Assembly (NCBI GenBank): GCA_022711115.1
Contig: JAKLFP010000006.1
Location: forward strand, 86,214 to 150,213
Length of the DNA: 64,000 nt
Direction of reading: 5' to 3'
Source of the DNA: Candidatus Omnitrophota bacterium
Lineage (GTDB): Bacteria > Omnitrophota > Omnitrophia > Omnitrophales > Aquincolibacteriaceae
The notes beneath the pieces were generated by a model. It was not told the origin of the DNA. It did not search any database and saw nothing but the letters and a program-made list of their open reading frames with translations. The position numbers and the translations under genes are program-made. Below are positions 20,076-64,000 of this stretch, piece by piece; position 1 is the first letter of the stretch, and each line of letters begins with the position of its first letter.

Positions 20076-20076
20076 T

Positions 20077-23592: not shown

Positions 23593-23680
23593 GATCAGTC
23601 TCCTCTTCGAATCTCTGTTTGTTCAAGATCCAGTCTCAAACCAGTTTGCGACCGGATCTTAAAACGGGCCATCTGCAAAG

Positions 23681-24280: not shown

Positions 24281-24317
24281 GTTTTCCTTTCATGTAACTT
24301 AAAATAACTTTAAACCT

Positions 24318-24944
24318 CTAATTGTTGATTAAAAAAGGCCGTTTTTTAAGCGCCTTTGCCAAAAAAAATCCTAAATTATTTTTAAATAATTTATAAAATC
24401 TGTCCTTCATAGTATTCTTCCTTGGAAAGGCAATCCTCGGAATGGGCTTGCCTAGAAAAGGGCACAACGTCTTCCACCCTTCGCCGTCACAAATCCGAAA
24501 GATCAATAATTGACTCGGTTTTTCCTTAAAATAATGCAACACGTCCGAAGTGTGGTTTAGATATAAATCTTCGCATTTTTCCTTGTCAATTTTTAAAAAA
24601 TCAAACTTATAAAAAGGATCTTTGCGGTTTACCCAGGCGTGCACTTGATTGCTTCGCATCCAAGATTCAAAATCGCGGCCCGTAAAGATAAACTGGCTGT
24701 CGGGATACTGCTGATCCAGGATCTTATAAAACTTTTTTACATTAAACCCCAGAAAGGCATCATATGTTTCAAGGCCGTCTAAAAGTTTTTTACCCTGATT
24801 CATATTTTCTTGAAATAAATCCATGAGGCGTTTGCCTTTAAAAACGTCATGAAGACTCCGATATCCCAAAAGAATCAGAGCCTCATGAAGCGATAAAGTC
24901 CCTGTTTTTCTAAGGCCGATACAAAATATTTTTTTATTTCCCAT
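24318..24944 (-). CDS. Sulfotransferase-family protein (putative).
   Basis: 208 aa. The N-terminal P-loop-like IFCIGLRKTGTLSL resembles the sulfotransferase PAPS-binding (PK.GTT) motif. Confidence 0.4.
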   Translation of the reverse strand: MGNKKIFCIGLRKTGTLSLHEALILLGYRSLHDVFKGKRLMDLFQENMNQGKKLLDGLETYDAFLGFNVKKFYKILDQQYPDSQFIFTGRDFESWMRSNQVHAWVNRKDPFYKFDFLKIDKEKCEDLYLNHTSDVLHYFKEKPSQLLIFRICDGEGWKTLCPFLGKPIPRIAFPRKNTMKDRFYKLFKNNLGFFLAKALKKRPFLINN

Positions 24945-25023
24945 AATTCCTTATCCAAAAAAACAGTTTTATGCTTCCGGTTTGTGCGTTTTTATTCTGA
25001 AAAATCTCCGCCTTGAACTAAAA

Positions 25024-43900: not shown

Positions 43901-46900
43901 GGAGCTTCCACGCTCAAGTTTGCCGTTTGAAGATCCGCCACTTGCCGCAAAGAAATCTTAACAACACCTTTTCCTGTCTCGATTACAAGCGGTTGGGACA
44001 ACGAAACCTCAAAAATTTGTCCGGCCAAAATCGCCACACCGCCTTTTGTGATCATCGAACCGTCCTTGATTAAAGGAATGGAAACCATCATCCTTTGCTG
44101 TTGTGAAGACAATGTATCGATCTGGACCCGGAAGATCCCGGGGCCGAAAACAAGTTTATGCCCGCGGGAAACGCGCATTGTCTCTGTGGTAAGGATAGTG
44201 GGCTTTTCCGGATTTCGCATTTCCGAACGATGCTTTTTTTCAATTCCTATTTCAGCATACAAAGGCTGCCCTGTGTCCTGGACTTTATGAAGATGAACAA
44301 TAATATCACCGACGGAAATGCTTTCTCCGGCAATCCGTCTGCCCTCTTGGATTACTTGGCCCTCCTTTAAAATTTGCAAAAAAGCGGCAGGCAGACTATC
44401 CCAACCATAACGACCGGGATAAGCTTCAACATCTACGGTCAAAGATAATCCATGGTCTAATTCGATAGTTTGCTGATCTTCAACACGTTTTAAGGATAGT
44501 TCTATTTCATTCGACACTTCAAGTTTTTGTCTTTGGGGACGGTTTTTATAAAGTTCTTTTATTCCTATCACGATCATCCCTAAGATCGCAGCCGGTGCAA
44601 CAATCCTGGCCAGAACAACCAGGGAATTGACCCAATCGATATCCATCCGCAATTCCGAGCGACGAAAATGAGGCGCTTCGTCCATTTCCGGGGCCAAAAG
44701 ATCTTGAGTTTGCTCCACCGCGGCCCTGACAACCGACATTTCATCAAGATAGCGGCGATAAGCGCGCGTGGTCACGGGATCGGCCGGCGATTCCTCGGAC
44801 AAAGATTCGATTTTCTTTTCCAGACCCTGAAGCCAGCTCGCCCATGCCGCAGAAGCCGCGTAGAGCCATCCCAGAGTTCTTACAAGATTTTCGACGTTTT
44901 CCGGTTTTGCGTTTTGACGGTCCGACAGAAGCCGTTCGGCCGCAGGATTGAATTTACGAACCAACGGATCCCGGATCTGGCTAAGCATGCTCGGTTGGTC
45001 CAGCCGGTTATCCTGGAGATGCCTTCCGATCTCTGTCTTGATCCTCACAGGGTCCGTGGAAGGATTCCCGTTGTGCGGCGCGAGCGCAAATAAAGCGTTG
45101 GAAACTTCTCGGAGCGCGGACAAAGCGTCGGCGTGAACCTGTTCCGGTAACAATTTATTTTGATAAATCTCTTCCAGACTCAACAGCCTGTCCATAAGAG
45201 ACGCGGTATTTGAACCGATAAAATCAAGCCCTTCCTCTCCGGCTACCGCCTCTTGTCCTTCTTTTTCAAGAAAACGCTGCGCTTCCCGTCTGCTCTGAAA
45301 GATCAAGGCCGTTTCATTTTCAATCCGCAACTCCGAGTGAGGCGTTTGGGAAGCCGTGTCCCCGCCCGTAAGCGAGAACAACCGCCCGCGCAACACCTCG
45401 AGCCGGCTCGATAAAACCTTCCGGCTACGTTCCAAATTTATCCGTTCTTGTAAAGAGGTTGCTTGGCGAAACTTTACAGCAAAAGATTTTGAGCTGGATT
45501 CCAAATTGGCGATCCTCAAACGAATCTCTTGTTCGTCAACTGGAATCCCCGGATCCGGATCTTCGGCACGCGCCTCCGACCGGGAGATCTTAGTCATGTC
45601 CGGAATATTCCCGAGCAGCTCTCCGACAGCACGGGCTATGCGAACCCGGGAATTGTTGGGATCATCACCGAAATTCCCGGCATTGCTCTGCACTATTCCG
45701 ATCAAGTCAGAGACAACTTCCGCTTGTTTACGGACAGCCTCGGGAAATCCTTCCGTGGAAATCACGTCGAACAGCCCGCCTTTATTTTCCGTAATAGCCA
45801 GGAAAAGTTCCTTCAGCTTTTCACGATCCCCTTTGAAATTTTCCTTGATGCCGGTCATGTCGGGATTAACGCTCCGGACCAAAAGCCTCAAAAGGATCTC
45901 GGCCTTGATTTCAGAAGTCAATGTCCGGTTGCTCATAATATCGTTCAGGACTTTTGCCCGCCGCTCCGCCTCAGAAAAACCCGTCATGGATTCAGGCAAT
46001 GATTCTCCGAGATTCAGAGCCTTGGATTTTTGTTCCTGCGCGTGAAACTCATAGGCCGAGGCCACGATCAGATCCAACCCACGCTGTGCCCGCCAAGCCA
46101 GTTTCCGCGTCGCCAATTCACTGCTGGCACGAAGAACATCCGGATCGCCCTGCCGGCGCGGACCGTAATCCACCACTAATTTGCCGCGCTCTGCCGCGGG
46201 AAGCACTTTCCTGAAACTTTCAACGATCTGATTATTGGAGGTTGGGGTTCCTGTCCCTAAGGTAAAGACTTCGCCTACTTTTTTATTCTCTGTCTTGGCT
46301 TGATAAGACAGTGACAAAGATTTCATAATCGCGTGACCAATGTCCAGAACATGGATATAATCCCGGATATTGGTGCCATCGGGCGTCTGATAATCTTTCC
46401 CAAAGATCTGGAACGGAACCTTTTCTTTTCCGTAAAGGAAATATTTGATGAGCCTCGGGATGAGGTGCGTCTCCGGACCGATATGCCCTTCCCCGACCCA
46501 CTCTCCGATCTCCTCCCAGTAAAACGCTCCTGCCAGATTGAAAAAACGCAGCGCCGCGAAATTAACGCCCTGCGCTTGATAGGCCTGCATCAGGCGTTCC
46601 ATCAGATATTTGGTCTCTCCGTAAGGGTTCATCGGTTTTGCCGGGATCTTTTCATCAAGCAATCCGTATTTATTGAAATTCTTTCCTTCAAAAACACCAG
46701 CGCTCGAGGCGAACGCCAGGGGGATCCCCAGTTCCTTCGCGACTTCTTCCACATCCAGCGTACCAACCACATTATTGTCAAAGTACGTCGCCGGAAAATT
46801 TCCGGAGACCCCAGCGGCAATGTAAGCCGCCAAATGAACAATGCTGTCCGCGTGATGTTCCATCGCGACCTGCTTCAAAAGATCGCGGCTTGCGATATTT

Positions 46901-49900
46901 CCTTCCACCACTGAAACTCTTCCAGGGTAGGCCGCCTGGACCTTCCGCAGATAGGCCTTCCGCTTGGGTGTGAGCATGTTGTCAAAAAGGACGACCCTGG
47001 ACCCGTTGGAAAGCGCTTCATACATGACCCCTGAGGCTACATAACCAAAACCTCCCGTGATCAAGACGGTCTTTCCTTCATGGATTTTAGGATCCACATT
47101 CGGAGCCACCGGGCTTTCGATCATGGATTTCTGCCAATTTAAAAAGTAGAGACGCTCGTCATCTTTAGGAAGGATCTCAAGTTCCCAGTTCTCTTTGATC
47201 AAAATTCCGCCGAGCTCATAAGATTTCTTGGAAGCCAGAAAGGCCGCGATCTTTTCAGGGATCCCTTTTTCCCGAAGTTTGCGTCCCAATTCTTCAGAAG
47301 ACATGTAAAAAGCTTCCTGGGCCGCGATCTCGACAGCGATATGATCGTCTTGCGTCACCTCCACGCCTCCGATGCTGCCAAGACTGGCCTGAAGACGTTT
47401 TTTCCAGTAATGAGACTGCGCCAGATACGAAGTAGCGACCGTTTCCACCACGGCTACGGCATCGGGCTTTTTGATCGGTTCGAAAGTATCTTCGCGCGTC
47501 AGCCCGACCAGAGGAGATTCCGGTCTGCGGGGCCTGTCATCGCTCGCACGTTCTAATTTTTTGACAGTTCTTGTATTCCCCTCGAAATCCACCTGCGGTT
47601 TGGTGTCAAGCCGCCACGGCGTTCGGCTGGACGCTTTGAGACTTTTTCTCCACAACACGCGAAAACTCGGGTCCCCCCACAGCACTGTGTCCTTAATGGC
47701 GTCCGTGGCGTTCCCGTAGCCGATATGGCGCCACTGCCCGTCGGAGGTTTTGATCTGGTTCCCAAGCCGGTCATCGCGATTATTTTTCTTCACAACACCC
47801 AATGCGATATGGGCTCGGTCATCCTGATTGCCGGGATTCCATGTCATTTGCCCGTAGCCGATCAATCGCTCATCCGCGATGGGGTTCAGCTGATTGTCCA
47901 CATTAAGGTACTGGACCACTTCAACGCCGAAGGAATCGAGAAAAGCGTTCACATCCTCCCGGAGAAGAACATCATCAAACGTATCCCCATGACCGGTTCC
48001 CCCTGTCGCGATCTCGCCGTTCTTGTTCAGAAAAGGCATTCCTGTTTTCGCGTCAAAAAGCGGCATCACGCCCTGTTGGGCGATAAAGATCCGGTCTTTC
48101 ATCCCGAACCACTGATTTTCCTCAAAGAACTGTATCGTTTTTTCATGGGTGATATCGCTTGTCATGATGATGACGGGAAAAGACGCGTCGTGACCGTAAT
48201 ATTTTGCTGCGGCCTGGATCTTCTTGATGATCCCGGCATAAAGCGGGAGCTGGCTCAAGGGTGTTCCGGGCAAAAATCCCTTGGGGTCAGGGCTCTTAAA
48301 CTCAGACCCCGAACCTCCGGCCGCCAGGACAAGCGCAAATCTTGATTTCCCGGGCATCGCCGGATCCGCCCGCAAAACTTTTTCCCGGGCCAGACGCTTT
48401 GCGGCGGCATCCTCCGCTGCTCCCGGTTCATGAACAGGAACGGTGAACGTTTCCGGAACTTCCGGCTTCGGCACTCCCGGCATCACAATCGTGTCCCGGA
48501 GTCGCTTGGCCTCTCTCCACAGAATTGTTTTAATCTGTCCGAGTATTTTTTTCTGCTGCTTTTCGCTTAAGGAATCCCACGGCGCCAGCAGGTGCTCCCA
48601 GCCGACTTCCTTGAGGCTTTTCATGGCCCAGGATGGGATTTCCGCGGCAACGCGTACTTCGGAACGTTTCTGCGAACCGCTTGCCGGAACAATCCCGCTA
48701 AGAATATCTTTTTCCCCCGCCGTCAGAACGGCATACGCTTGCGCGTGTTGTTCCGCAATGTCTCGCAAAACTTCTTCAGCGTAGTCTTCATCATCAACTT
48801 CCGGATCAAGACTTTGCATGACTTCTTTAAGAACGCTGGCGAATACTCTCGTGTTGAATTTCCCGTCGGCAAAAGTCTTCGGCAAAAGTTTCCCTTCCGC
48901 CAATTCCTCGGGAGAAAGGTCAAGTTTGGAGATCGCCTTTGCCGCGGCCTCTTCCATAACATGTAGTTTCAGGTCTTTCAGTGTCGGCACATCACGCAGC
49001 GCCCTGAAAATGGCCGGAAAACTGTAGCTGTTGTTCAAGGTGCTTCCCTGCGGGTATCCAAAAGCGCCTGTTGCGATAAAACGGATGTTCGGCATTTTTT
49101 TGAGTTCTGCCGGGTCCGCTTCGGGAGTCGGGTTCGAGCCCATAAAAGCACTGGCCTGGTCCTTCATGCCAGAAAAGATCGATTCCTTGCCCCACAAAAA
49201 CCCAGGCTCGGATAATCCTATAAAAGCATCCGCCCCTTGCAGTCCTTCCGCCAAACGCCCCTGATCGATCAAAGAAAGGACTATTTGGTTAATCTCGGGC
49301 ATAAGATCGCCGTATTTTTCGCTGAGAAATCCCGCGATGTTCTCCGGCAAACGGCCTTGTTTCTGCAGGGCCTCCATCGCGGCCAATCTTTCTGCCGCGG
49401 CATGGGCAACATGCTTTTTATCTCCTCCCTGCTCGACTTCGGCTAAAGCCAGTTCATGGGCCTTCGCAACCGAAAACTCCAGGCTTCCTTTAAATCCCTG
49501 AATGTTCAAAGCCGCCAGGTCATTTTTATGCTCTTCAAAGATTCCTTTTCGGCCCGAATAAAGAGGGCCCTTGGTGTCGTATACGATAATATTGCCACCC
49601 CCTGTTTTATCCATACCGAAACCGAGACGTTTCAGGAGAAGTGCTGTCGCGGTGGCAGAGGCCCCGGCGCCGGCGATCACCACTTTCATTTTAGAAATAT
49701 CACGGTTGGTTTCTTTCGCGGCCCGTAGAAGAGCTCCCGCAAAAACCATCGCGGTCCCGTGCTGATCGTCATGAATGGTCGTGATCCCTGTTTCGTTCAG
49801 TTCTCTTTCCAGCGGAAAACAGACCGGCGACCCGATATCCTCCAGCATCACCACAACCTCAAGTCCTTCCTCCTCGCGAACCTTGGTGACATAAGCCTGG

Positions 49901-52900
49901 ACTTGCTGTTTGATCTTTTCCTTAATCTCAAACGCTATTCGTTTTTTCGCCCCGGGATCTTTTTCTGCCTTGTATTTGAGCCACATGTCCCGCGTATCCA
50001 CAAACGCGATGTCCACGTTCACGCCGCCGAACCACTTCAGCAAAATCCTTTTCCCTTCCGATACCGCGCGCATCACGGCCGGCCACTGCAGTCCGATCCC
50101 AAGCACCGCGGAAGCGTCCGAAAAAATCACGATCTTTCTTTTTTGAGCCGGGAAAGACAAAGGCTTTTTGCCGTAAAGCGGCGTTTCAAGGTCCAGGCCT
50201 TTTTTCAGCGCGTCCGCGATCGCTTCACAAACGGCTCCCACGCCGGGGGTATAAACCGTCTTCATCGCTTCGATCACATCGACCGGGACAATGCCGTGCT
50301 TAAAAAATATGTCGATGAGTTTTTTGTAAGTCTGATATTCCGATGGGATCGCCGCCGGCAAGCTGTCCTCAGATGTCTCCCGAACTTCAGACCGGGGTCT
50401 GCTTTCCATACTAACCGCTACTTTGCAATTATTTGTGTCGGCCCGGGTCCTTACGCGGACATTTTCCCATCCCAATCGGGTAAGGTTTTTGAATGGAATA
50501 TCAAAGACAACCCAAGTTGTCCGATTTGAATCTACAATAAGCGAAGCTTCTTCTATCAATGCGTGGATATCTCCGTAGATATCAGCAGGCCTTTTCCCGG
50601 AAGGATCCACGTATAACCGCATAGGGATCCGGATCCGATCGTCCGGCTCAATGAGTTCGACTTGAAGTTGTTTGTGATCCTTAAAGAAGGATTGCTTAAC
50701 AAAAATATTGACGGCTTTGTCGTTTGTTTCGACGAAACCCGGAACCAAAAGGCTGATATCCTGTGCGGGTAAATGCCATTGGGGGCCTATGAAATCTCCC
50801 AGCGGCTCCCGAAAACTCCATGCCGTCAGCGCAAGAATTAACAACGCCATAGCCATACTTAGGTTTAAGAAAATAGCCCGTGAACTTAGGTTTGGATTCC
50901 ACCAGCGCCTTATCTGGGTGTCTGTGCGTGAAGCTTCTGGGATGGCAGCAACAGAACCGCCTTTCGGGGGCATGGTTCGTATTTCGGAACGGCGTCCAAA
51001 AGCTTTGGTAAGCGCTTCGGCAAGGGCTTTCGGATTGTCCCATGGAGCAAGATGTAATGAGGAATCTTTTTTGGGGTTTTTAAAAACAATTTTTTTCTGG
51101 AAAGGTTCAAGGCTTCGTTTTTCTCCTGACTGTATGACAGACACTTGTTTTGAGTTCAATCCAAGCGCCCGCTGTAATGTTAAAACAAGGTCTTCCGGAC
51201 TTTGCACAAAATCCAACGGGGCCATGTCAATGCCCACCCAAATACCGTTTCCAGCCTGATGAAAAGTTACCTCATACCCAAGTACTTTTGCCGTCTCACC
51301 CCGCATTTCGGAACGGCCCAGGTTTTGGCTTGGATCTGTTCTACCATTTGCGCGCTGATGAACGTTGATGATCGTTTGGGCGATCTCCATGGAGTTCATA
51401 ACAAAACCGTCTTTCATCACCGGTTTTACATTTTCGGTAACAAACTCCGAGGGACCCTGAGCGTAAACAAGCAACTGGCCGTCTTCGCTCTCAATAACAT
51501 GAATCCCATTCGGCAATGTCCTTCCCATACCTTGGATCAATCCTGCGAGCTGTTTTGCCGAGAAAACCGTGGTGTAATCACCGATGACCGCCGCAAGAGA
51601 TGTCGGATCTTTCCGGCTAGCGGCCCTCACTTCAGCCCGTTGAATGGCAGCAATTGCATTTTTTGCACTTAGGTGAACGGATGGATCTGAATCATTCAGC
51701 GCTGAGTAGAGCGCTGAAAGCGCTGGTTGGGCCTGGGGACCAATTTCCCCAAGTGTGATAATGGTCTGCTCACGAATCTCCGGAGAAGGGTCCCTCAATT
51801 GGGGCATTAACTGCCAAACTGCATCGCCCGCCTCAGAACCCAAGGCGCCAATAGCGGCAATGGCCTTTAAACGCACCTCTTTTTCCGGGTCGCCGATTAA
51901 ATGAAGCCAATCACTCACATTTTTCGGCATAGCCGTTTCAGACGTACTCCTCATTTCAGAGCGATTGTCCGCGGGATGTTTTCCTTCGAAGTGTGATGGT
52001 TTTTTGACAAAGGTGACTTTAGCGGTTGTCCCTTTAGGATAAGGATGTTTCAGGGTTTCGGGATTTTTTAAATCAACTGCTTTATGGCCGGGAGATGGAA
52101 TGATGCTGGCAATGTATTCACCGCCGCCTAGATTTTCACGTACCTCAACGGCTCGCTTGATAGCCTTGAGCGTCATGGTTGCCTCAAGTTTATAGATTTT
52201 AAAATGAAGGGCGTCGTCAGCTTTCACTTCCGTTAGCCCTTTGACCTTCGTCCTCATCTCGGACCTGGCAGAACGGCTTTTCAGGGTATCTATTTTTCTT
52301 TGACCCTCTTGATCTTCCGGTTGGATATAGCGGTGCAGAAAATGCCAAAGAAGAGATTCAGGAGTGAGAAGCGACTGGTCCCAAACCGGCATGTCTTTAA
52401 AAATCGTCTTGAATCGTTTCAGGACGTTGAATACAAAATCATTCTGCTTTCTCTGGAATTGCTGGGCATAGGCGATTTCGATTAACGGCCCCAAAAAACG
52501 GTTAAGAAACGGCAGTTCATAAGCAAGTTGTGTATTAATGGAACGATGCGCTTTTTTCATGGTTTTAAAGCTACGTTCCGTTTCTTCGAATCTCATCTTT
52601 TGCCATCTCCGGATCACCTCGGCAACCGTATGCTCCGGTCCCACCACCAAACTTGCGAGGATATCCCGCATCAAGCGGATGTCATAACCTGTCAGGATAT
52701 TATTGCCGTAAAGCAGCATATCAGGACTTGTATAAAGAAAGATCCCATAATGTGTTTCTTCAGGTTTCAAAACGGCCAACAACTCATCACTCAAAGCTTC
52801 AACCCCTGTCACAATCAAGGTCTCGTCCGGCGCAAGCTGCAAAAGCTGTTTTTCTCCTCGGTCGTCTTTAACGCGGATTTTCTTCCCGTCCAAAGCATTA

Positions 52901-55900
52901 CGGACATCCCACGGATTGGCAAATTCAAGGTCCAAATGTTTCAGCTTAAGACCTGCTTGAGCGAGCATTTCAGAGAGCTCTTCGGTGATTCCATGTTTGC
53001 CCGAAGCGCGCATGCCACCGATCAAGATCACCTTGGGTTTTTTCTCAAGGATCTCACGGATAACCTCCTCGGTCTGTTGCTTTTTGGATCGATCCACCTT
53101 TTCGACCAATGCTTTTCTTTCCTCTTCGGTTTTGATCGCTCGAAGTTCGTCGAGAGTTTCGGGCAGAAGTTCCAGGCTCATGCCTTCAAGGTCATAAGGT
53201 TTTTGGCCCTCAAGTTTTTTCGCCCATGCTTCGGGATGGCGCGCCAATTCCGCATTCATAATACGGATGACGGCCAAAATAAAGGCTGCTTTTCGAAGAC
53301 TTATTTTTTTCGCGTCGGCAATACGAACAACATTGTTAAAAGCGCTGATAATTTTATCTTCCATAATGCGGTTCACGGCATCTTCCGGCCATTGTTCACG
53401 AACAAGGTTCTGCCGCCATTCCAGGTAAGAAACGATCACGCCGCCCGCATTGGCAACCACATCCGGAACAACGATGACACCTTTTTGCTTCAAAATTCCG
53501 TCGGTTTCCTTGTTTTTGATCGGTCCGTTGGCTGCTTCAATCACCAATTTGACCCGGAGCAAACGGGCAATGCGTTCATCAATGGTATTTTCGAGTGCGG
53601 CAGGCACTAGGGTATGAACCTCGCTGGCCCAAAATTCTTCCTCGGAGATCACTTTCACTTCTTCGGGGTATTCTTTTGCATAATCCAAAATGGTTTTCCT
53701 GGGAAGCATGTTGCCGGCCGCGTCTTTCCTGGGTGCCAGGAATTCCAGAATCTTGGGAATGTTCAAACGTTCACCGGTTTTGGTCGCAATAGCGCCTTCT
53801 TTTTCTTTCACGGCCATAATCCTTGCTCCATTTTCATGAAAGATTTGCGCGCCATGCCCGCCCACATTGCCGAGTCCTTCAAACGCAACGGTTTGTTTTT
53901 CTATCTCTGTCCCGATGCCGAGCCGGGCTCCAAAAACTTTGACTGCTTCGCGCCAGACAAAAAACACCCCACGGCCTGTTGCTGCAGTCCGACCATGTGA
54001 ACCGCCTTTTTTCTCGGGCTTGGCGGTCACCACAGCAATGGGAGATCCTTCTACCATTGGAATTTTATGCTTTTCAGGATTTGCTAAATACGCGTCTAAA
54101 TAGGGTGTGTCGACATCTTTGGAATTGCTTAGTTTCCACCGAAATTCGATTGTTTTTTTGAATAATTTGTCATGCTTAATCTTTAAAAATTCATCTGCCA
54201 TCCATGCCATTTCCTTTTCTCCAGTGCCGACATCCGGAGCCGGAATATCATTCAAAGGACCGATCGCATCGGCATCTTTGGCAAGCAAAGCCTTCACATA
54301 ACCTCGAGTCAATCGTGCGAGCTCGCCTTCTGAAAGCTCGCGCGGATTCACGGCAATGCCTCCCTTGCCCCCTCCGTAAGGAAGCCCTGTGATGGCATTT
54401 TTGATGCTCATCCACATGGAAAGAGCCTGCACATCCTCAAGATCGACATTCGATTTATAGCGCACACCGCCTTTTCCCGCCCCCCGCGCATCATTGTGAT
54501 AGACGCGATAGCCTTTAAAGATCTTTGTGGTGCCATTATCCATACGCACCGGAATATTTACTTCAAGGATACGATAAAAGCTGAGGAGCCATTCAAGAAG
54601 TTGGGGATCAAGGTGGATCAGCTCTGCGACCTCCGAAACCTGACGCTTTGCATTATCAAGGGCCACCTGACCTTCGGATGCTTTTGCCTGTGCTTCTTTT
54701 TCTGCTCGCACTTCGGACCGTCCTTCAAGTTGGCCGGGCATGTCGGCCATCAAAATTCCCTCGTCATCTGACAGCAACGTCTGCTGACCGCCAGGCGCTA
54801 CATAGCGCGACACCGGCCTGCTGAGTTTTTTTCCTCCGCTGAAATTCAGGAAAGCGATCGGTTTCCGGTTGAATTTTTCAGAAAGTTTGGAAGCCCAAAA
54901 ATCAGCGCTAAACTGATCCGTTCCGGCCACTACCAAAATCTGGTCTGCTTCTGATAATTCGTTAAATAACCTGTCGGGAGGTGAAGTGATGTCGATGGCC
55001 CATTCACTCTCATTGCAGATGAGCAGTGCCAGTTTGAATTTTTGATTCAATAAAATGATTCGCGATTCTTGGTTATGAGCGTATTTCTTGAATTCTGTTT
55101 TTTGAACTCGACCCGTTCCATCGGAAAGGAAAAAGACATAGAAAGCCCTTAAGTACTCCAGCCCTTCGGGAGGGATCCTCTCCAAACCGTAGCCGACCGA
55201 AATTCCAAGACGCCGGACCGTTTCTGAGAGAATTCTTTCTCTTTCTTTTTCGCGTTCCGGAGTGTAGCTGTTCCAACCCACAACTTCATCCGGGCTTTCA
55301 GGGAAAACAACAAGATCGGGGGCATTTGTTCCGAATTTATCTTTGAGCCCTTGCAGAATCCCCGCCATTCTGGCTGTGCTCGCATCAAAATCATTTTCCT
55401 TCATTTGGACCCAAGCGATCCTTGGAGCGTCACTTTTTGCCTTTTCGTCAAGCCACACAATCTGTGCGGGTAACGCTTCTTCTTTTTTTCTCACTTCGGA
55501 ACGAGAAGAAACTTCGGGCGGCTGTTCTTCAAAAAGAAGATCAAGGGCCAACTGACCTTCTTGACCATAACCTTTCTGCCGAAACAGATCTTCTAAGCGA
55601 GGGCGTTGTACGAGGTCGCTGAAATCCGCATCTTCGGAAATTTGGTCTTGTATGGTCTTGCGAAGCAATTCCAGAATCCTTCCCGCGGATGAATAATCAG
55701 AACCACGTTGAGTCTTACGAATAAGAGAATCTGTTAACGCCGTAAAAATATTAGCGAGAAAAATAGTGTCTCGAGCTTCCTGAGAGATATTGGCAGGAAC
55801 ACGGCTGGCTGGTTTTTGATCCTGCATTTTTGCCCTCGCAATAGCACTTTGAATCCAGTCCATGACCGTTTTCTTGGTTTTGTTTTCAGTCCTCACTTCA

Positions 55901-58900
55901 GAACGAACTGTGGCAGAAACCGTCATCTTTTCAAGAAGCTTTTGAGGTACAGGACGGCCCTCCTCAAAAAAATTGGCTGTCGCCCAATCATAAATGGCAC
56001 CCCCTACGGATTTTTGGGCTTGGAAAAAGTTTTCTTCTTTATTGCCGGGAAATTTTGATAACGTTTCGCCGGCTACCTTTAAAAACTCACTTTCAAGAAA
56101 TGTTTGCATCTCCTTTTTTCGCTTGGATAAATCCTGAAAAAATTTTCTTTCTTCTGCACTTGCGGTTTCTTCTATGTTTTTGGGGCGTTCAAGGAGTCTT
56201 TCGATAAAAAGCTTGGCGTAGAATTGCGCCATTTCGAGGTTAATCTTGTCCCATTTTAAATTTTTAAGCTCTTCGAGGGCTTTCTGCGCTTGCTGCCCCG
56301 CCGTCGTCAAAGCATCTTTTTTGGATAGGGCCAATTTTTGCCAATATTCGGAAGGCATACTCGCGATCATTTCGGGCGTTAGGTCATCCGCGCGAGTTGC
56401 GTTTTTGATTTTTTCCCAAGCAGCTTCGTTTTGTGCTAGGAATGCAGCTTCAGCTTCTCTTTTTTCAGCTTCAACGGCTTCCAGCTCTTCGATCTCCTTG
56501 TTTGTCACATCGAGTAAGAGGCGGCTCTTTTTCTCTAGAGCTTTTTGTTTTAACTCAGGAGTCGGCAACGCTTCGATGATTTCTTTTGTGATTTCTCCTG
56601 GCTCTGTTGCGTTCTGAACTACGGTGAGAGCATTCTTTACAGCCTGTCGCTTATTTTGCTCAACAACGCGCATGTAGTCTGTTTGAACCTGACCCATTTG
56701 CTTTGCTGTCCTGGTTTCTCCTTCTTGCATCAGTTTGGCTGTCGCTAATGCCTTTTTTTTAGCCCTTGCTAATTCCTGCCAATATCCGGATGGCATCCTT
56801 GCGATCATGGCTGGGGTGATGCTTTTGCTGCTTGTGGCTGTCCGGATGGTTTCCCAAACTTTTTTATTTTTTTCTGCTTGGACATCACCGGATCTCCGGA
56901 CTTCAGCTTCTTCAGATTCCATCTTCGAAATTTCCGCAGCTGTTATCTCCGAGAAAAGACGGCTTTTTGTCGCGATGGCTTCCTGTTTCAACGCCTGCGT
57001 CGGCAGTGCGTCGATAATTTCTTGCGTGATTTCTCCGGGCTCCATGGCACGCCGCACTACTTCTAAGGCATTTTGGATGATTTGCCGATCGTGCGCCTGA
57101 AGTTCGCGAGTCTGTTGCTCAAGCAAGGCTGTCTGACGAGCTTCACCGGCCGCTATGACTTTCCCCCATGACAATTGAGAAGCTTTTATTGCCGCTTTTT
57201 GGGCCTTTTGAACAGCAGCTTCTTTTGCAGCTTTTTCATCGGCCTTTTTCTTCGGTAAGGCAGCTCCCTGGGCAAGTTTCGACTTTTGAGCTGCTTCTTT
57301 GGATTTCTGAGTTTCTTGTTTCTCCCTTTCTTTTTGTTCCTTGGCCAACAAAGTAGCTATCTTCAAGGCTTCTGCCTTTTGAGCCGCCTCCTTGGCTTTT
57401 TGAGCCGCTTTTTCTTCCTCTTCTCTTTGTTTTTTTTCTAAAGCAGCTATTTTCGCAGCTTCTGATTTTTGAGCTGCTCTTTCTTCTTTTTCTTTTTCCT
57501 TTTTTTCAAGAGCGGCTAATTGGGCTTCGGACAAGCTTGGCTTTGCCGGTCGCGAAGTAATAATCTTTGGCTCTCTCCTTTGAGCCCGTTCAACCAAATA
57601 AGTTTTAAGAACCTCGCTTTCGGGATACATCTGCTGCAACTGGGTCATGGCACCATGGATCTGCTCCATGGTTCCCGTTTTTTGGATCTGGCGCACGCGG
57701 GCTTCTACTGCATTCCGAACGGTTTGAATATACATGTCCCTGTCACGCCGCTGCCTTTGTTTGATCTGTTGCAGATCCAAAAGTTTTTCGGCTGTCTTTT
57801 TTAAATCAGGATGTTTCGCGACCCACTGAGCCAATGCTTCTTGGAAGCGCCGGCCAATAAACACATTTCTTTTGCCAAAAAAAACATCCGCATTCCCTTT
57901 CCCATAGATTTGATTGATCTTCCGTCCGATACTTGTTGTTTCGATGACGCGCAGTTCGTTGGCGAGTATTTCAAGAGGAACGGGCATATTTTTGAATTGC
58001 GGGTTTCCATAATCGCGGATTCTTTTCAAAGCGCTATCCACTAATTCTGTGAAATCTTTATTTTCACTCGGAAGATGCAGTCCCCAAACTCCCATCTCCC
58101 TGAAATCCACTTCAAAACGGTGGATCGTGGAAGCTACAATCCCCGTTGTTTTTTCAAGGGCTTCCTTCAAACGAAGAAGCGTCAGCTTTTGATCTTTCGC
58201 GAGTTCTTTTTCGAGGTCTTCGACAGTCTTTATCACGGTATCGAACGTCAGCGTGACATGGCCGAGATTGACCTTTGTTTCCTTTGCTTTCTTTGCTCTT
58301 ACCTCGGAGCGAGAATGCGAAAGAAAAAGTTCCTGGATAGCCGACTTCTGATAATTCATGTCGGCGGGCCAGTCCTTTCCAAGAACGCCGTGGGCCCATT
58401 CGTGAAGATCCGCAAGAATATCCAAGAAAAATGCTTCTTTGGGATGGAGATCCGCAAGCTCGTGCGCGTAACCGATAATAGAAAACCGTTTGAGTGAATC
58501 AAGAAAAGTCAGTGCGCCATGAAAATTTGTATCCGCCGTACCGGCCTCAAGCGCCAAAAAAAGATCTTCCGATTCCTGGATCAATCGCTCAAGAAGTGGC
58601 CGCCAAATTTGATGCGCGGGAGTAGAGCTCGAGAGATTCCATTGTTGCAGGACCTTTACAAGTCGATTGTTGGTCCGGTCTAAAAGGCTCTTCAGCTCCT
58701 TGATGGATTTTTCATCCGCAGGCGAAAAAGAAATATTCCTGGAAAAAACAACCCCATAGAAATTTTTATCCGGTATCGGAGAAATCCCAGGGACATGCTG
58801 CCTGGTGAACATATCCAATGCCTCAAGCCATAAACCTGAAAGCTGATAATAAACTGCTCCAAAATGCGCCAAAAGCACGTCACCCTCTTTGGCATTCCCT

Positions 58901-61080: not shown

Positions 61081-61395
61081 GAAATAGGTTGTCTTTCCTT
61101 ATTTCCGATCTGGATCTTTAGGTATGAGAAAACTCGCTGAAAGCGTAACATATTTTTTTATAATTTCAAGTTCTTGAAAAAGGATTTATTAATGCATGCA
61201 TTAAGATTTTAAATTTCGTTACTAATGACACTCCATTGCTATATACTGCTAGAATAAGAAAATTCATGGCAGGAGCTGTCTCTACTCCGTGTTGATTTTA
61301 GACACGATCTGGGCTATATATATTGTGCATTGCGCGAGAGTTCCAAGGTACACTGCAATAAAATTACGTAATGCTGTTTCCAAAATGAGGACACG
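61081..61395. promoter_or_regulatory. AT-rich divergent intergenic region between the giant ORF (minus) and its stand-alone TraB-like paralog (plus). Presumed bidirectional promoters.
   Basis: 315 bp, strongly AT-rich (tataatttcaagttcttgaaaaagg..., ctatatact...). Both flanking ORFs have SD-like sequences adjacent to their ATGs. Confidence 0.4.
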
Positions 61396-63573
61396 ATGCG
61401 TCATCCTATTTCCTATAAAAGCGCTAGTGTGGCATTGGCTGCTATTTCAATGTTCCTTTTTTACAACTGGACTGCCACGGCGGAAACAACTCCTTCGTTA
61501 CCTTTAGAAAATCTTGCAATCCCTGAGTCCTTAGGCAAGGTTCAGGAACGTTTCGTCGGTTCCGGAAACCGCATCATTATTCAGATTCAGGATGTCCATG
61601 CACACGCCGCCGCACAGGAAAACATCGCGGCCATTCTGGAGCATCTTCAAATTGTCGGCAGGATCGATAAAGTCGCCTTGGAGGGTGCCTGGATCACAAC
61701 TGATTTGCCGAAAAGCCACGCTTTACCGACTTCCAGAGAAAAACAACTTCTCGCCAGATCCCTGCTGAGCGATGATCTTATTTCAGGCCCTGTCTACGCC
61801 TCCCTGATTGCCCCCTCCCCCTTGATGCTGATGGGGATGGAAGATGCGGAGTTGTATGAAAAAAACCGCGATCTTTTCATTAAACATCTTGAAGCCGCAC
61901 CAGCCATTGATTCGAAAGTTCGTGCTTATGGAGAAAGATTGCAAAACCTGCAAAAACAAGCCTGGAACCAGGATCTTCTGACTTTTGGAATTGCTTTTTC
62001 AAAATTTGAAGAAGCGATGGATTATGGAAAATTTTTTCCTTTCTTAATAGAAATTTCAGGTTCTCACAACGTTGATTTTTCAGACCTCGCTCAGATTGTT
62101 TTAACACGGGACATTATGGCTTTCGAAAAATCCATCTCGAAAGAACGCCTCGAGAAAGAGGCCAAACAGCTTATGCGTCAATTCAAGGACACTCCCTGGA
62201 CGCTGGAAGAATTGATTCGAGGCAATAAAATCCCGTCCGAACAGCTGGGTTTTTATCCGGAAATAAAAAAACTCCTCCACTTATTCAAACTTAGAGATCG
62301 GGTTTCTCTAACCGAGCTCATGTCTCAGACGGAAACCCTCATCAGTCGTATCCTCAAAATGCTTATTCAGACACCGGAAGAAGAGGCTTTGTGGGGAAAA
62401 AGTGAAAGATTTTTCCTGGCGAAACGGATTCTTCTTCTCAAGGCAGCGCCAGATGACCTCAAAACTTATGAGGATGAAAAAGCGGCTCTGGAGGCGGATC
62501 TTCAAGAGGCCGGACTTTCCGAGGGATTAGATCTTTCCTTGAAATTTTATGAAGTTGTTAAAAAACGCGATGAAATCTTTTATGACAAGATCGTTAATGG
62601 CCCCGCGTTCGCGGGTCCCCTTGCCGTCGTCACGGGGGGATTTCATACGGATGGTCTCTCCAAAAAATTTCGCGCCGCAGGAATCTCATATATCACGATT
62701 GCTCCCGAACTCGGGAACACTTCTATGGATGAAAAGCTTTATGTTGAGAGAATGCGTTCTTCAAAACCAGCGCAATACCAGGATTTGCCGCCCTTGGCAG
62801 ATCCCGGTATTGCCGAGGGTAAAACGGAAACTCTCTCGGAGCTTCGCAATGCTATTGCTTGGATCGACGAAAGATTTTTCGAGGCTTATGAGGTCTTGAT
62901 GCAAACCAAGGATGTACGAAAAGCCGTTGCTGCTTTTTCCGGAACAACCGTCACTATTTCTAACGCGCAAAAGATATCGTATGCCTATTCTGCGGGCAAA
63001 GTTGTTTCGGCAAGAAAGACAGGGGGAACCACCATTCCGGCCATTCATGAAGCTGAATTCCTAGCCAGCACGCGACAGGAACAATTAGCCGTTGTGCAAG
63101 GATGGCTTGATAAAGCTCCCCGCGTCGATCAAAAGGCCATGCTGGTCTCTTCTGTCAGTGTTCTTAAAAAATTGCTTTCGGACGAAAAAGTTCCAGGGCT
63201 GATCGAAAAAATCACTAAAAACGGGGATTTGCTTGTACTCCTGCAGGATATTCCCTTAACCGAAGTGCCTGAATCTTTGATGACAGCACGAGGGATCGAT
63301 CGTTTTGATGCGCCGGATTTCCAGCACTTGCTCCAAAATATGCCGCGTTTTCAAAGGCTTGCTAAAAAATATCCTTTTGCAATCATGAAAGAGGGCTACC
63401 GAAGCCAGGCCTATGTGGTGCTTCCGGAAGATCCGGCCTCATTAATCCTTTACCGAATCGTCACCTTAAGCCCAAGCCTTTATCAGGCTGCCAAAAACCC
63501 TCGCTTTCTTAATCTTTTGAAGGAGCTTGTTGCAGAGATCTTGTCCGAAGAGCTTCCTAAAAAATCCGTTTAG
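61396..63573 (+). CDS. Stand-alone paralog of the giant-ORF head domain: secreted TraB/GumN/Tiki-like protein (725 aa) with a unique C-terminal ~230 aa. No junction motif.
   Basis: gagga SD 5 nt upstream. The hydrophobic N-terminus MRHPISYKSASVALAAISMFLFYNWTATA is followed by IIIQIQDVHAHAAAQENIAAILEHL, ALEGAW and LAVVTGGFHTDGL, aligning with module 1 of both giants. Ends with a normal stop. Confidence 0.8.
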   Translation: MRHPISYKSASVALAAISMFLFYNWTATAETTPSLPLENLAIPESLGKVQERFVGSGNRIIIQIQDVHAHAAAQENIAAILEHLQIVGRIDKVALEGAWITTDLPKSHALPTSREKQLLARSLLSDDLISGPVYASLIAPSPLMLMGMEDAELYEKNRDLFIKHLEAAPAIDSKVRAYGERLQNLQKQAWNQDLLTFGIAFSKFEEAMDYGKFFPFLIEISGSHNVDFSDLAQIVLTRDIMAFEKSISKERLEKEAKQLMRQFKDTPWTLEELIRGNKIPSEQLGFYPEIKKLLHLFKLRDRVSLTELMSQTETLISRILKMLIQTPEEEALWGKSERFFLAKRILLLKAAPDDLKTYEDEKAALEADLQEAGLSEGLDLSLKFYEVVKKRDEIFYDKIVNGPAFAGPLAVVTGGFHTDGLSKKFRAAGISYITIAPELGNTSMDEKLYVERMRSSKPAQYQDLPPLADPGIAEGKTETLSELRNAIAWIDERFFEAYEVLMQTKDVRKAVAAFSGTTVTISNAQKISYAYSAGKVVSARKTGGTTIPAIHEAEFLASTRQEQLAVVQGWLDKAPRVDQKAMLVSSVSVLKKLLSDEKVPGLIEKITKNGDLLVLLQDIPLTEVPESLMTARGIDRFDAPDFQHLLQNMPRFQRLAKKYPFAIMKEGYRSQAYVVLPEDPASLILYRIVTLSPSLYQAAKNPRFLNLLKELVAEILSEELPKKSV

Positions 63574-63893
63574 ACTTTTTCCGCCAGTTCTTTCCAGTTT
63601 GCAAGCGTCGTTTCAAAGCTTTGTTCGAGAATGTCTCTGACCTTCTGCTCGCCGAGAATCATACCTGCAATCCCCAGATCCCAGGCCACTTCAATGGCAA
63701 CCTGAACACCGTCTGAAACCGGCTGAAAGTCGTGCGTTCTTTTCATGACACCATTCATCGGAAGCTTGCTCTGAATGACCGCATGGCGCATCGGTTCCCA
63801 AACCATCATTTCATGCTCAGCTTCGATATGCTGCCGGCCAAGTTCACAGGATTCGCGCCAGCACAGGCCTTTCCCTTCCACGATCTCACCCAT
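63570..63893 (-). CDS. Hypothetical protein. The N-terminus may lie beyond the right edge of the window.
   Basis: 107-aa ORF with coding-like composition, convergent with and overlapping 4 nt of the 61396..63573 gene. No motif recognised. Confidence 0.35.
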   Translation of the reverse strand: MGEIVEGKGLCWRESCELGRQHIEAEHEMMVWEPMRHAVIQSKLPMNGVMKRTHDFQPVSDGVQVAIEVAWDLGIAGMILGEQKVRDILEQSFETTLANWKELAEKV

Positions 63894-64000
63894 CCGTTCG
63901 GTTTCCTTGACACCATCGATCCATTCGGGATACCGGCGGACATCGGCAAGCAGTCCCCAAACTTTGTCAAGAGACGCATTGATGAAAATTGATTTTTTAA

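What the first reader, a model, noticed from the sequence alone, without database searches (positions are those of the whole stretch)
61081..63573. Divergently transcribed, ordinary-sized TraB-like paralog sharing a promoter region with the giant ORF
The 725-aa plus-strand gene (61396..63573) has the same head domain but a normal stop and no junction motifs. It sits back-to-back with the giant ORF across a 315-bp AT-rich spacer. It is a candidate trans-acting partner (protease or maturation factor) or the ancestral gene from which the giant heads derive. Co-regulation from a shared bidirectional promoter would be expected.
Basis: inference. Interest (0 to 1): 0.55.

Follow-up and report, generated by a model that had tools for sequence, protein, structure and literature searches.

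The report
Stand-alone Tiki-like paralog of giant-gene heads
Next to an 11,695-residue gene of an uncultured Omnitrophota bacterium sits a normal-sized, conserved gene for an exported enzyme-like protein that shares its hydrolase-type "head" with the giant proteins, which gives a concrete way to test whether those giant proteins are cut into pieces.

Summary
ORF 61396..63573(+) encodes 725 aa. It lies head-to-head with an 11,695-aa ORF (25993..61080, -) across a 315-bp spacer of 35% GC. Its residues 30-460 match the N-termini of that giant and of a second, cut-off giant (start 6942, -) at 22-23% identity. The window is Candidatus Omnitrophota.

The protein also has a Sec-type signal peptide, a conserved QTLSELRN linker motif and a non-catalytic HAD-fold C-domain that the giants lack. 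The head family has about 10,000 cluster representatives. Only the 725-aa clade has a fixed short length.

The divergent pairing holds in 22 of 24 evaluable related species, together with a pair-specific conserved ~110-bp control block.

A role as protease at the giants' R-S-E-Φ-R junction motif is plausible but untested. "Ancestral gene" is not supported.

The parts
61396..63573 (+). CDS of the 725-aa protein (p725), stop TAG 63571-63573
   Evidence: It is 100% identical to a public Omnitrophota MAG protein, and 129 homologs, mostly 680-750 aa, were found.
61396..61482 (+). Sec-type signal peptide (aa 1-29; predicted cut after A-T-A)
   Evidence: Read from the sequence. Nearly all of the 38 orthologs have a charged n-region, a hydrophobic core and an AxA-like site. 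The model shows helix 5-27. No signal-peptide predictor was run.
61513..62760 (+). Tiki/EreA/ChaN-fold head domain (aa ~40-455)
61588..61599 (+). Q65-D66-V67-H68, first catalytic motif ([D/E]-x-H)
   Evidence: Invariant in 38/38 orthologs. Giant A has QDAH and giant B has EDAH. It corresponds to E3900-x-H3902 of RRSP (PMC6254334).
61681..61683 (+). E96, candidate catalytic Glu, 28 residues after H68
   Evidence: Invariant. The H-to-E distance is 28 in RRSP and Bcr135 as well, and in 133/133 head-family representatives where the motif could be located.
61846..62598 (+). Helical insertion of ~250 aa within the head (aa 151-401)
   Evidence: Secondary structure of the model.
62566..62568 (+). R391, invariant Arg, candidate for the conserved basic residue of Tiki-type active sites
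   Evidence: One search shows it is invariant. The equivalence to RRSP R4001 is inferred from its position 26 residues before the second His. It was not checked by superposition.
62635..62649 (+). G414-G415-F416-H417-T418, second catalytic motif (GxxH)
   Evidence: Invariant. Giant A has GGFHT and giant B has GGFHS. GGFH is present in 145/145 family representatives.
62764..62844 (+). Disordered linker (aa 457-483)
   Evidence: pLDDT is 31-34.
62827..62850 (+). E-T-L-S-E-L-R-N (family consensus QTLSELRN), a conserved short motif in the linker
   Evidence: T479 in 37/38, L480 in 36/38, S481 in 33/38, N485 in 31/38. DNA read.
62851..63570 (+). C-terminal HAD-like-fold domain (aa 486-725), apparently non-catalytic and specific to p725
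61081..61395 (.). 315-bp AT-rich divergent spacer
61137..61252 (.). Conserved control block: GAAAg-TAACAyA-N14-AAATTTCAAG-N3-TTGAAAAAGGATTTATCA...TGTTTAA...TTGCTATAAATTGCTAT
   Evidence: 9-mers are shared by 21/21 orthologous spacers, against at most 11 in shuffles. The block is unique in the window. It occurs only in loci that carry the giant/p725 pair.
61164..61179 (.). Dyad TTTCAAG-tt-CTTGAAA inside the block
61142..61169 (-). Putative promoter of the giant gene: -35 TTGAAA (61169-61164), a 16-nt spacer ending in TATGt (consensus TGTGt), -10 TACGCT (61147-61142; consensus TAnCTT)
   Evidence: Inferred from the cross-species alignment. It lies at a fixed 77-106 nt from the giant ATG in 19 of 21 species. 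No transcript data.
61236..61252 (+). Putative extended -10 promoter of p725: TTGCTATATACTGCTAG (consensus TTGCTATAAATTGCTAT)
   Evidence: Conserved about 75 nt to the right of the dyad. Inference. An alternative plus-strand site, CTGAAA-16-TATAAT at 61137..61164, was found by the scan.
59401..61080 (-). Head of giant ORF A (aa 1-560 of 11,695), paralog of the p725 head
   Evidence: It is 44-50% identical to the heads of the syntenic giants in L001 and L003.
5263..6942 (-). Head of giant ORF B (ORF runs off the window start), the third paralog
   Evidence: It is 31% identical to the giant A head.

Best explanation
p725 is a real, conserved Omnitrophota protein that is exported through the Sec pathway.

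Its parts, in order:
- a signal peptide;
- a Tiki/EreA/ChaN-fold hydrolase-type domain, split by a ~250-aa helical insertion;
- a disordered linker that carries the conserved motif QTLSELRN;
- a non-catalytic HAD-fold domain.

The hydrolase-type domain belongs to a very large, unannotated family. All its other clades form the N-terminal head, right after a signal sequence, of long and giant multi-enzyme proteins. p725 is the only clade with a fixed, short architecture.

It keeps the full catalytic constellation of active Tiki-superfamily enzymes: D66-x-H68, E96 exactly 28 residues later, R391 and GGFH417. It therefore most likely acts as a hydrolase outside the cytoplasm, using a water molecule activated by a His-Glu pair, on a peptide or ester bond.

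In one Omnitrophota clade the gene is paired head-to-head with a giant A-type gene. The two share a conserved, pair-specific control region of about 110 bp with a central dyad, so they are probably regulated together.

The likeliest job is handling or maturation of the exported giant proteins, the same substrate class that the giants' own heads act on. This may take place at or near the R-S-E-Φ-R junctions that bound protein-sized modules.

Shown: the gene, its conservation, the paralogy, the fold class, the conservation of the catalytic residues, the conservation of the pairing and of the spacer block, and the restriction of the junction motif to head-bearing proteins.

Inferred: export, hydrolase activity, the promoter assignments, co-regulation and, least certain of all (about 0.2-0.25), cleavage at the junction motif.
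For: Gene and family: 129 homologs, mostly 680-750 aa and all unannotated. There are 38 invariant columns across the 38 aligned orthologs.

Active site: the 2His/2Glu motif plus Arg of RRSP and Bcr135, with the same H-x27-E spacing (PMC6254334), corresponds to D66/H68/E96/R391/H417. These are invariant in the orthologs and present in both window giants. In family representatives, GGFH is present in 145/145 and H-x27-E in 133/133.

Export: Sec-type N-termini in nearly all 38 orthologs.

Family size: 9,950 representatives at E<=1e-3. In the top 150 the head is always N-terminal, and the 145 representatives new to that search are 578-7,498 aa long.

Clade structure: 49 p725-type heads all lie in ORFs of 619-846 aa, whereas every other clade is long.

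Pairing: a giant A-type head lies directly upstream on the opposite strand in 22 of 24 evaluable loci of the clade with at least 41% identity.

Spacer: a conserved block present in 21/21 spacers and only in paired loci.

Link to the junction motif:
- 166 strict motifs in 190,701 aa of head-bearing ORFs, against 2 in 199,563 aa of other ORFs.
- 330 strict motifs, against 2.2 expected, in 145 representatives.
- 29 of 33 assemblies with p725 have the motif, against 3 of 12 without a detected p725.
- The motifs bound protein-sized modules (median 210 aa), and none falls inside a Pfam match.
Against:
- In the more distant p725 clade (33-37% identity) the upstream neighbour is usually an MqnA-like gene, not a giant. 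p725 is therefore not tied to one particular giant.
- Two loci in the close clade lack the giant and also lack the spacer block.
- Head-bearing long proteins of Endomicrobia, a Planctomycetia MAG, Omnitrophus magneticus and some other Omnitrophota have no repeated motif. The head therefore does not require the motif.
- The phyletic correlation is not corrected for phylogeny or for MAG incompleteness.
- About half of the giant heads have Asn or Thr in place of the first acidic residue.
- The sigma-70-like sites in the spacer are not more frequent than in shuffles.
- No expression data are available.
Confidence: 0.5

Rival explanations
1. p725 is an independent envelope enzyme. It would be a periplasmic esterase or peptidase with a housekeeping substrate such as a lipid, glycan or peptide, and no functional tie to the giants. 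The adjacency would be historical: a head-bearing gene was inserted, or grew, between p725 and the MqnA-like gene, and the conserved spacer block is simply the giant's own promoter and leader.
For: - Distant orthologs lie directly next to VitK2_biosynth/MqnA without any giant.
- The same synteny (MqnA, M24 peptidase, transketolase, GGT, Bax1-I) is found in the window on the far side of giant A. Giant A therefore looks like an insertion.
- The spacer block sits at a fixed distance from the giant's ATG and at a variable distance from the p725 ATG. It is absent where the giant is absent.
- p725 is equidistant from all head clades and has its own C-domain.
- Known relatives include esterases (EreC) and haem binders (ChaN) as well as proteases.
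Against: - The pairing and the pair-specific block, including the putative p725 promoter element about 75 nt from the dyad, are kept in 22 of 24 evaluable loci, all at 41-63% protein identity to the window protein.
- Presence of p725 correlates with the junction motif in the giants of the same assembly.
- The head fold is otherwise used almost exclusively at the N-terminus of long proteins.
Confidence: 0.3
2. p725 and the heads are non-catalytic. They would be ligand- or haem-binding domains like ChaN, or chaperone or export-handling domains that hold the nascent giant chain at the membrane.
Against: The inactive members lack the 2His/2Glu motif. p725 keeps all of it in all 38 aligned orthologs. 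The His, the Glu at +28 and GGFH are universal in the family. There is no lipobox Cys.
Confidence: 0.12
3. p725 is a decaying or spurious ORF, a truncated remnant of a giant gene.
For: None beyond its short length compared with its paralogs.
Against: More than 120 clusters have the same length and architecture. Identity to the window protein is 31-67%, and 38 columns are invariant. Both domains give confident models. The C-domain is unique to p725 and absent from the giants. There is a good ribosome-binding site and an ATG start.
Confidence: 0.01

Closest known systems
Tiki-superfamily endopeptidases (RRSP/DUF5 of MARTX toxins; metazoan TIKI1/2)
   Different: There is no detectable sequence similarity. 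p725 has a 250-aa helical insertion, an Asp instead of a Glu at the first acidic position, a signal peptide and an extra HAD-fold domain. Its substrate is unknown.
Erythromycin esterases (EreA/B/C) and EreA-like Bcr135/Bcr136-type 'succinoglycan biosynthesis' proteins
   Different: There is no Pfam PF05139 match. Those enzymes are cytoplasmic esterases of small molecules, whereas p725 carries an export signal.
ChaN (Campylobacter haem-binding lipoprotein, PF04187)
   Different: There is no sequence-model match, no lipobox, and nothing that indicates haem binding. p725 keeps the full catalytic set.
   Different: None of the 38 orthologs matches PF01963, even at E<=10. The membrane topology and the domain composition differ.
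Omnitrophota 'multi-enzyme metabolic cluster' giant proteins (West-Roberts et al. 2023, bioRxiv 10.1101/2023.11.21.568195; Nielsen & Lui 2026, bioRxiv 10.64898/2026.06.07.730766)
   Same: Giant A is of this class, with Glu dehydrogenase, malic enzyme, UDPGP, epimerase, inositol phosphatase, methyltransferase, ACP and MraZ segments. p725 shares their N-terminal head.
   Different: p725 is 725 aa with a single C-terminal module. Neither paper mentions a Tiki/TraB/esterase-type head, the R-S-E-Φ-R motif or a stand-alone paralog.
HAD-superfamily phosphatases (for the C-terminal domain only)
   Different: The DxDx(T/V) nucleophile motif and the other HAD motifs are absent. No residue of the alpha/beta part is conserved.

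Membership tests
Tiki/TraB/EreA/ChaN superfamily (fold level) | Alpha/beta core with a parallel beta-sheet, structurally similar to solved members | tested here: met
Tiki/TraB/EreA/ChaN superfamily (fold level) | 2His/2Glu-type motif: [E/D]-x-H, a Glu about 28 residues later, and a second His in a GxxH motif | tested here: met
   D66-x-H68, E96 (+28) and GGFH417 are invariant in 38 orthologs and present in both giants. The reference pattern is from PMC6254334.
Tiki/TraB/EreA/ChaN superfamily (fold level) | Conserved basic residue next to the active site | tested here: inconclusive
   R391 is invariant and lies 26 residues before H417. Its structural equivalence to RRSP R4001 was not checked.
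Tiki/TraB/EreA/ChaN superfamily (fold level) | Hydrolytic activity (peptidase or esterase) | not testable with these tools
   Needs biochemistry.
Pfam TraB_PrgY_gumN (PF01963) | Significant match to the family HMM | tested here: not met
   The family is not among the Pfam matches of the window protein or of the 38 orthologs at E<=10.
Pfam Erythro_esteras (PF05139) / Cofac_haem_bdg (ChaN, PF04187) | Significant match to the family HMM or to the sequence of a solved member | tested here: not met
   Pfam; NCBIfam; profile against PDB sequences.
HAD superfamily (C-terminal domain) | Rossmannoid HAD fold | tested here: met
HAD superfamily (C-terminal domain) | Catalytic motif I DxDx(T/V) after strand 1, and motifs II-IV | tested here: not met
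   Strand 1 reads AMLVSSVS. Only D491 and F494, in the first helix, are invariant.
Head-bearing Omnitrophota long/giant proteins | N-terminal signal sequence followed by the head domain | tested here: met
Head-bearing Omnitrophota long/giant proteins | Long, variable C-terminal body with repeated R-S-E-Φ-R junctions | tested here: not met
   p725 has a fixed length of about 700-750 aa, no strict motif and one specific C-domain.
Bidirectional / shared divergent promoter region | Conserved promoter-like elements for both strands within one short region | tested here: inconclusive
   A conserved block with a dyad, a minus-strand TTGAAA-16-TGTGnTAnCTT and a plus-strand TGcTATAAA. The simple sigma-70 scan is not above chance.
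Bidirectional / shared divergent promoter region | Mapped divergent transcription starts and correlated expression | not testable with these tools
   No transcript data were available.

The most novel reading that the evidence does not exclude
The heads and p725 are site-specific peptidases of a bacterial polyprotein system. In this reading, giant multi-enzyme ORFs are precursors that are cut at R-S-E-Φ-R junctions into protein-sized modules (median about 210 aa, some with their own signal peptide directly after the junction). p725 would be the free, co-regulated, trans-acting copy of the protease, and its own QTLSELRN linker would be a self-processing or autoinhibitory site.
Probability: 0.2. 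Interest if true: 0.9.

Novelty: new variant of a known kind. Interest (0 to 1): 0.6.

Why it matters
The giant genes of Omnitrophota are a recognised puzzle. Published work asks whether their products act as one chain or are cut into pieces. So far it points only to occasional C39 or S8 peptidase domains.

This finding adds three things:
- a common, previously unannotated N-terminal head with a protease/esterase-type active site, with about 10,000 cluster representatives;
- a stand-alone, normal-sized, soluble-domain paralog that can be expressed and assayed, which an 11,695-aa protein cannot;
- a junction motif that is restricted to head-bearing proteins.

Together they turn "are giant proteins processed?" into a direct experiment. 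Even if the protease idea fails, the family deserves a name and a model in the domain databases. The size series at this locus (no gene, then 1.8k, 2-3k and 11.7k aa) is also a natural system for studying how giant genes grow.

Tried and rejected
- **Sequence classification.** Pfam and NCBIfam scans of the three heads and of all 38 orthologs found nothing relevant.
- **PDB by sequence.** Profile searches against PDB sequences with A1 and A2 gave only chance hits.
- **Foldseek.** The search against the PDB gave nothing with E<0.07. The afdb50 library was unavailable.
- **RNA families.** Rfam on the spacer gave no match. I also considered the spacer dyad as an RNA hairpin. I rejected this because the variants (TTTCAAC...TTGGAAA) are not compensatory.
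- **p725 as a giant truncated after its first module.** Rejected. The C-domain profile finds nothing in the giants, and hhalign against the region after the head gives a probability of 0.07%.
- **p725 as the ancestor of the neighbouring head.** Not supported. It shows 21-24% identity to all clades.
- **QTLSELRN as a true junction motif.** Only 'SELR' overlaps. The first position is Leu, not Arg, and the codons differ from the junction pattern. I left it as a weak resemblance.
- **Ser of the junction motif as a nucleophile or phosphosite.** Unlikely, because one orthologous giant uses RAELR five times.
- **Homolog search with the giant A head.** It returned only 13 proteins, mostly fragments, so it was of little use. 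The exhaustive profile search replaced it.
- **Literature.** A search for the motif 'RSEVR' found nothing relevant. 'Omnitrophota' plus 'polyprotein' found no paper.
Full report
**1. The observation**

The window comes from a Candidatus Omnitrophota genome. The 725-aa product of ORF 61396..63573(+) is 100% identical to a hypothetical protein of an Omnitrophota MAG. The ORF has an ATG start, a GAGGA ribosome-binding site 4 nt upstream and a TAG stop.

It lies head-to-head with an 11,695-aa ORF (25993..61080, minus strand). The spacer between them is 315 bp with 34.9% GC, against 46-48% in the flanking coding DNA.

Residues 30-460 of the 725-aa protein ("p725") match two places in the window:
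- the N-terminus of the giant (60912..59488, E=1e-12, 23% identity);
- the N-terminus of a second minus-strand ORF that starts at 6942 and runs off the window start, so it has at least 2,314 aa (6792..5284, E=7e-16, 22% identity).

R-S-E-[VLIM]-R occurs 31 times in giant A against 0.05 expected, 3 times in the partial giant B and never in p725.

**2. Anatomy of p725**

An alignment of 38 orthologs (31-67% identity to the window protein) has 38 invariant columns. They include Q65-D66-V67-H68, N76, E96-G97, E149, R391-D392 and G414-G415-F416-H417-T418.

An AlphaFold2 model built on this alignment is confident, with mean pLDDT 84.9. It shows the following parts:
- an N-terminal hydrophobic helix;
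- an alpha/beta domain whose conserved His and Glu residues sit right after beta-strands;
- a ~250-residue helical insertion (aa 151-401) between two core strands;
- a disordered linker (aa 457-483);
- a separate C-terminal alpha/beta domain (aa 486-725).

Nearly all 38 orthologs begin with a typical Sec signal peptide: a charged n-region, a hydrophobic core and an AxA-like site. There is no lipobox. This was judged by eye, not with a predictor. Both giants start with the same kind of sequence.

The linker carries a conserved short motif, QTLSELRN (ETLSELRN in the window). T479 is present in 37/38 sequences, L480 in 36/38, S481 in 33/38 and N485 in 31/38. A conserved motif inside a segment that is not confidently modelled is the usual signature of a short linear motif. 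It overlaps the junction motif only in "SELR". Two of the 38 aligned orthologs carry an exact RSExR: P0102 at this site, P0094 further downstream.

**3. What the head is**

No sequence model recognises it:
- Pfam and NCBIfam give nothing for any of the three heads or for any of the 38 orthologs.
- Profile searches against PDB sequences give only chance hits.
- Foldseek against the PDB is not significant.

The interleaved HAD-family hits come from the C-terminal domain (see section 4).

The structural paper on RRSP defines the active site of this "TIKI superfamily" as a 2His/2Glu motif: E3900, H3902, E3930 and H4030, plus a conserved basic residue, R4001. In Bcr135 the His-Glu pair is H85/E113 (PMC6254334).

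p725 has D66-x-H68, then E96 exactly 28 residues after the His, as in RRSP and Bcr135. It also has an invariant R391 and H417 in the GGFH motif. Both giants have the same residues and the same 28-residue spacing.

Across 145 further family representatives, GGFH is present in 145/145. The His-x27-Glu spacing is present in 133/133 where the motif could be located. The first acidic position is Asp or Glu in only about half of them and Asn or Thr in the rest.

I conclude that the head is a new, highly divergent family of the Tiki/TraB/EreA/ChaN superfamily with an intact hydrolase-type site. The label "TraB-like" is right at that level only. Membership of Pfam TraB_PrgY_gumN was tested and not met.

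**4. The C-terminal domain**

It lacks the DxDx(T/V) nucleophile motif. Its only invariant residues are D491 and F494, in its first helix.

It is specific to p725:
- A profile of it finds nothing in any head-bearing long ORF.
- hhalign against the region that follows the giants' heads gives a probability of 0.07%.

p725 is therefore not a giant cut short after its first module.

**5. The family and the place of p725 in it**

A profile of the head was searched against 1.84 billion cluster representatives. It finds 9,950 proteins at E<=1e-3 and 6,918 at E<=1e-30. In the best 150 the head is always at the N-terminus. The 145 representatives new to that search are 578-7,498 aa long, and 98 of these 145 exceed 1,500 aa.

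I collected 103 near-complete heads from 84 loci and the window:
- The p725-type clade has 49 sequences, and its ORFs are uniformly 619-846 aa.
- The other seven clades are long. They include ones from Endomicrobia and from a Planctomycetia MAG.
- Mean identity between the p725 clade and every other clade is 21-24%.

p725 is therefore an old paralog, no closer to its neighbour's head than to any other. The "ancestral gene" idea has no specific support.

**6. The neighbourhood**

Giant A is a concatenation of enzyme-like segments. Pfam finds glutamate dehydrogenase, HEAT repeats, malic enzyme, UDPGP, NAD epimerase, inositol monophosphatase, methyltransferase, an ACP-like PP-binding domain and MraZ. 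This is the "multi-enzyme metabolic cluster" class already described for Omnitrophota.

Orthologs of p725 at 58% and 45% identity lie divergently next to giants of 6,228 and 4,642 aa. Those giants have different bodies but orthologous heads, 44-50% identical to the giant A head.

In a scan of GTDB species representatives, 22 of 24 evaluable loci of the clade with at least 41% identity have a giant A-type head directly upstream on the opposite strand. In the clade at 33-37% identity:
- the upstream neighbour is usually a ~290-aa VitK2_biosynth (MqnA-like) gene;
- a few loci instead have head-bearing genes of 1,769-2,899 aa.

In the window the same MqnA-like gene and its syntenic partners (M24 peptidase, transketolase, gamma-glutamyltranspeptidase, Bax1-I) lie on the far side of giant A. 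Giant A therefore occupies a slot that is empty in distant relatives and holds genes of increasing size in closer ones.

Downstream of p725, a convergent SRPBCC gene overlaps its stop codon by 4 nt. p725 is thus monocistronic.

**7. The spacer**

The simple sigma-70 scan finds three plus-strand sites, which is not more than in shuffles. Rfam finds nothing.

Comparison across species is far more informative. All 21 orthologous spacers are AT-rich, with GC 0.29-0.46. Nineteen are 201-374 bp long, and the other two are 489 and 891 bp. They share 9-mers in 21 of 21 cases, against at most 11 of 21 in shuffles.

The alignment shows a ~110-bp block. Its consensus is GAAAg-TAACAcA-N14-AAATTTCAAG-N3-TTGAAAAAGGATTTATCA...TGTTTAA...TTGCTATAAATTGCTAT. 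It corresponds to window 61137..61252. It sits at a fixed 77-106 nt from the giant's ATG in 19 of 21 species, and at a variable distance from the p725 ATG.

The block occurs once in the window. Among all loci it occurs only where the giant/p725 pair exists. It is missing from the two close-clade loci that lack the giant and from all distant-clade loci.

My reading of the elements is inference only:
- On the minus strand, TTGAAA, a 16-nt spacer ending in TGTGn, and TAnCTT form a good extended promoter for the giant (window 61169..61142).
- On the plus strand, TGcTATAAA, about 75 nt to the right of the dyad (61237..61247), is an extended -10 for p725.
- An alternative plus-strand promoter (61137..61164) would overlap the giant's promoter.
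- The dyad TTTCAAG..CTTGAAA (61164..61179) lies between them. Its variants are not compensatory, so it looks like a DNA site rather than an RNA hairpin.

It has not been demonstrated.

**8. Link to the junction motif**

The motif is a property of head-bearing proteins:
- 166 strict motifs occur in 190,701 aa of head-bearing ORFs, against 2 in 199,563 aa of all other ORFs of at least 250 aa in the same loci.
- 330 occur in the 145 representatives, against 2.2 expected.

In giant A, none of the 34 relaxed motifs falls inside a Pfam match (P=0.004). The pieces they bound are protein-sized, with a median of 210 aa. A methyltransferase piece has 274 aa, an ACP piece 133 aa and an MraZ piece 123 aa. 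The MraZ-like sequence starts 3 residues after the motif. Several motifs are followed at once by a signal-peptide-like segment.

One orthologous giant uses RAELR five times, so the Ser is not essential.

Head-bearing long ORFs of Endomicrobia, the Planctomycetia MAG, Omnitrophus magneticus and a few other Omnitrophota have no repeated motif. No p725 ortholog was detected in those assemblies. Overall, 29 of 33 assemblies with p725 have the strict motif, against 3 of 12 without (Fisher p=1.3e-4). This is not corrected for phylogeny or for MAG incompleteness.

That result is the only evidence that bears directly on the "trans-acting partner" idea, and it is only suggestive.

**9. Mechanism and verdict**

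The best-supported description has two parts:
- p725 is an exported hydrolase-type enzyme of the Tiki/EreA/ChaN superfamily.
- It is the one fixed-length clade of a huge family that otherwise forms the heads of long and giant Omnitrophota proteins. In one clade it is co-located, and probably co-regulated, with a giant gene.

I put about 0.5 on the composite claim that it is an active extracytoplasmic hydrolase functionally tied to the head-bearing giants. I put about 0.2-0.25 on the specific claim that it cleaves at or near R-S-E-Φ-R junctions.

The main rival, at about 0.3, is an unrelated envelope enzyme whose adjacency to the giant is historical. A non-catalytic binding or handling role is less likely (about 0.12), because the catalytic set is fully conserved. 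A decaying gene is excluded.

**10. Novelty**

The giant multi-enzyme proteins themselves are known. In the library searched, neither paper on Omnitrophota giant genes mentions a Tiki/TraB/esterase-type head. They also do not mention a recurrent junction motif or a stand-alone paralog. No paper combines Omnitrophota with "polyprotein".

The superfamily is known. This family is not: it combines a signal peptide, a split Tiki-like domain, a linker motif and a pseudo-HAD domain, and it is tied to giant genes. I rate it a new variant of a known kind, with interest 0.6. Its main value is that it makes the question of giant-protein processing experimentally tractable.

Noticed in passing
window 25993..61080 (-), for example aa 2121, 7724, 8488, 9239 of the giant: R-S-E-[VLIM]-R occurs 31 times (34 with the relaxed pattern R[SA]E[VLIMA]R). 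It bounds protein-sized modules with a median of 210 aa. There is also a codon-level bias. Ser is always TCN, never AGY. The fourth codon ends in a purine in 29 of 31 cases (GTG, GTA, ATG, ATA, TTG, TTA), although GTT and GTC dominate Val codons elsewhere in the gene. This suggests either a common origin of the junctions or some constraint at the nucleotide level.
   Followed up: partly
window giant A aa 5474, 6362, 6963, 7441 (about nt 44655, 41991, 40188, 38754, minus strand): Several junction motifs are followed directly by sequences that look like N-terminal Sec signal peptides or membrane anchors, for example RSEVR-MSAISKLVITGLLVLGLQAQSALAQ. The modules look like former independent exported proteins. 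Two of them also share a repeated stretch...NILMSIRKGPATNQ....
   Followed up: no
window 25024..25902 (-) and 7000..25000; loci L005, L028, L034, L037, L045, L050: The slot between p725 and the MqnA-like gene is empty in distant relatives. In others it holds head-bearing genes of 1,769 aa, 1,827 aa, 2,089-2,899 aa and at least 3,200 aa. Here it holds 11,695 aa. The rest of the synteny (M24 peptidase, transketolase, GGT, Bax1-I) is kept. This is a natural size series for the growth of a giant gene.
   Followed up: partly
locus L020 (DAOPYQ010000001.1), minus-strand giant 2..9697: This orthologous giant has no RSExR at all but carries RAELR five times. It is a lineage-specific variant of the junction motif with Ala in place of Ser.
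   Followed up: no
window 63570..64000 (-): A convergent SRPBCC/Polyketide_cyc2 gene, 68% identical to the one in L001, overlaps the p725 stop codon by 4 nt and runs off the window end. Pfam did not match the 107-aa ORF piece listed there.
   Followed up: partly
loci L008, L011-L016, L018, L020, L021, L024-L029: In 16 species-level MAGs the contig ends only 0.6-4.5 kb downstream of the p725 ortholog. This suggests a recurrent assembly breakpoint there, such as a repeat, an rRNA operon or a hypervariable region.
   Followed up: no
proteins P0129-P0132: There is a further clade of short head proteins (~590 aa). They have a head plus a low-complexity tail that contains motif-like ASEIR/ASESR, and are 21-24% identical to giant A's head. 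p725 may therefore not be the only stand-alone form.
   Followed up: no
loci L064, L068, L069, L078 (Endomicrobia) and L084 (Planctomycetia MAG): The head domain also heads long ORFs (up to more than 3,800 aa within the fetched DNA) outside Omnitrophota, without any repeated junction motif.
   Followed up: partly
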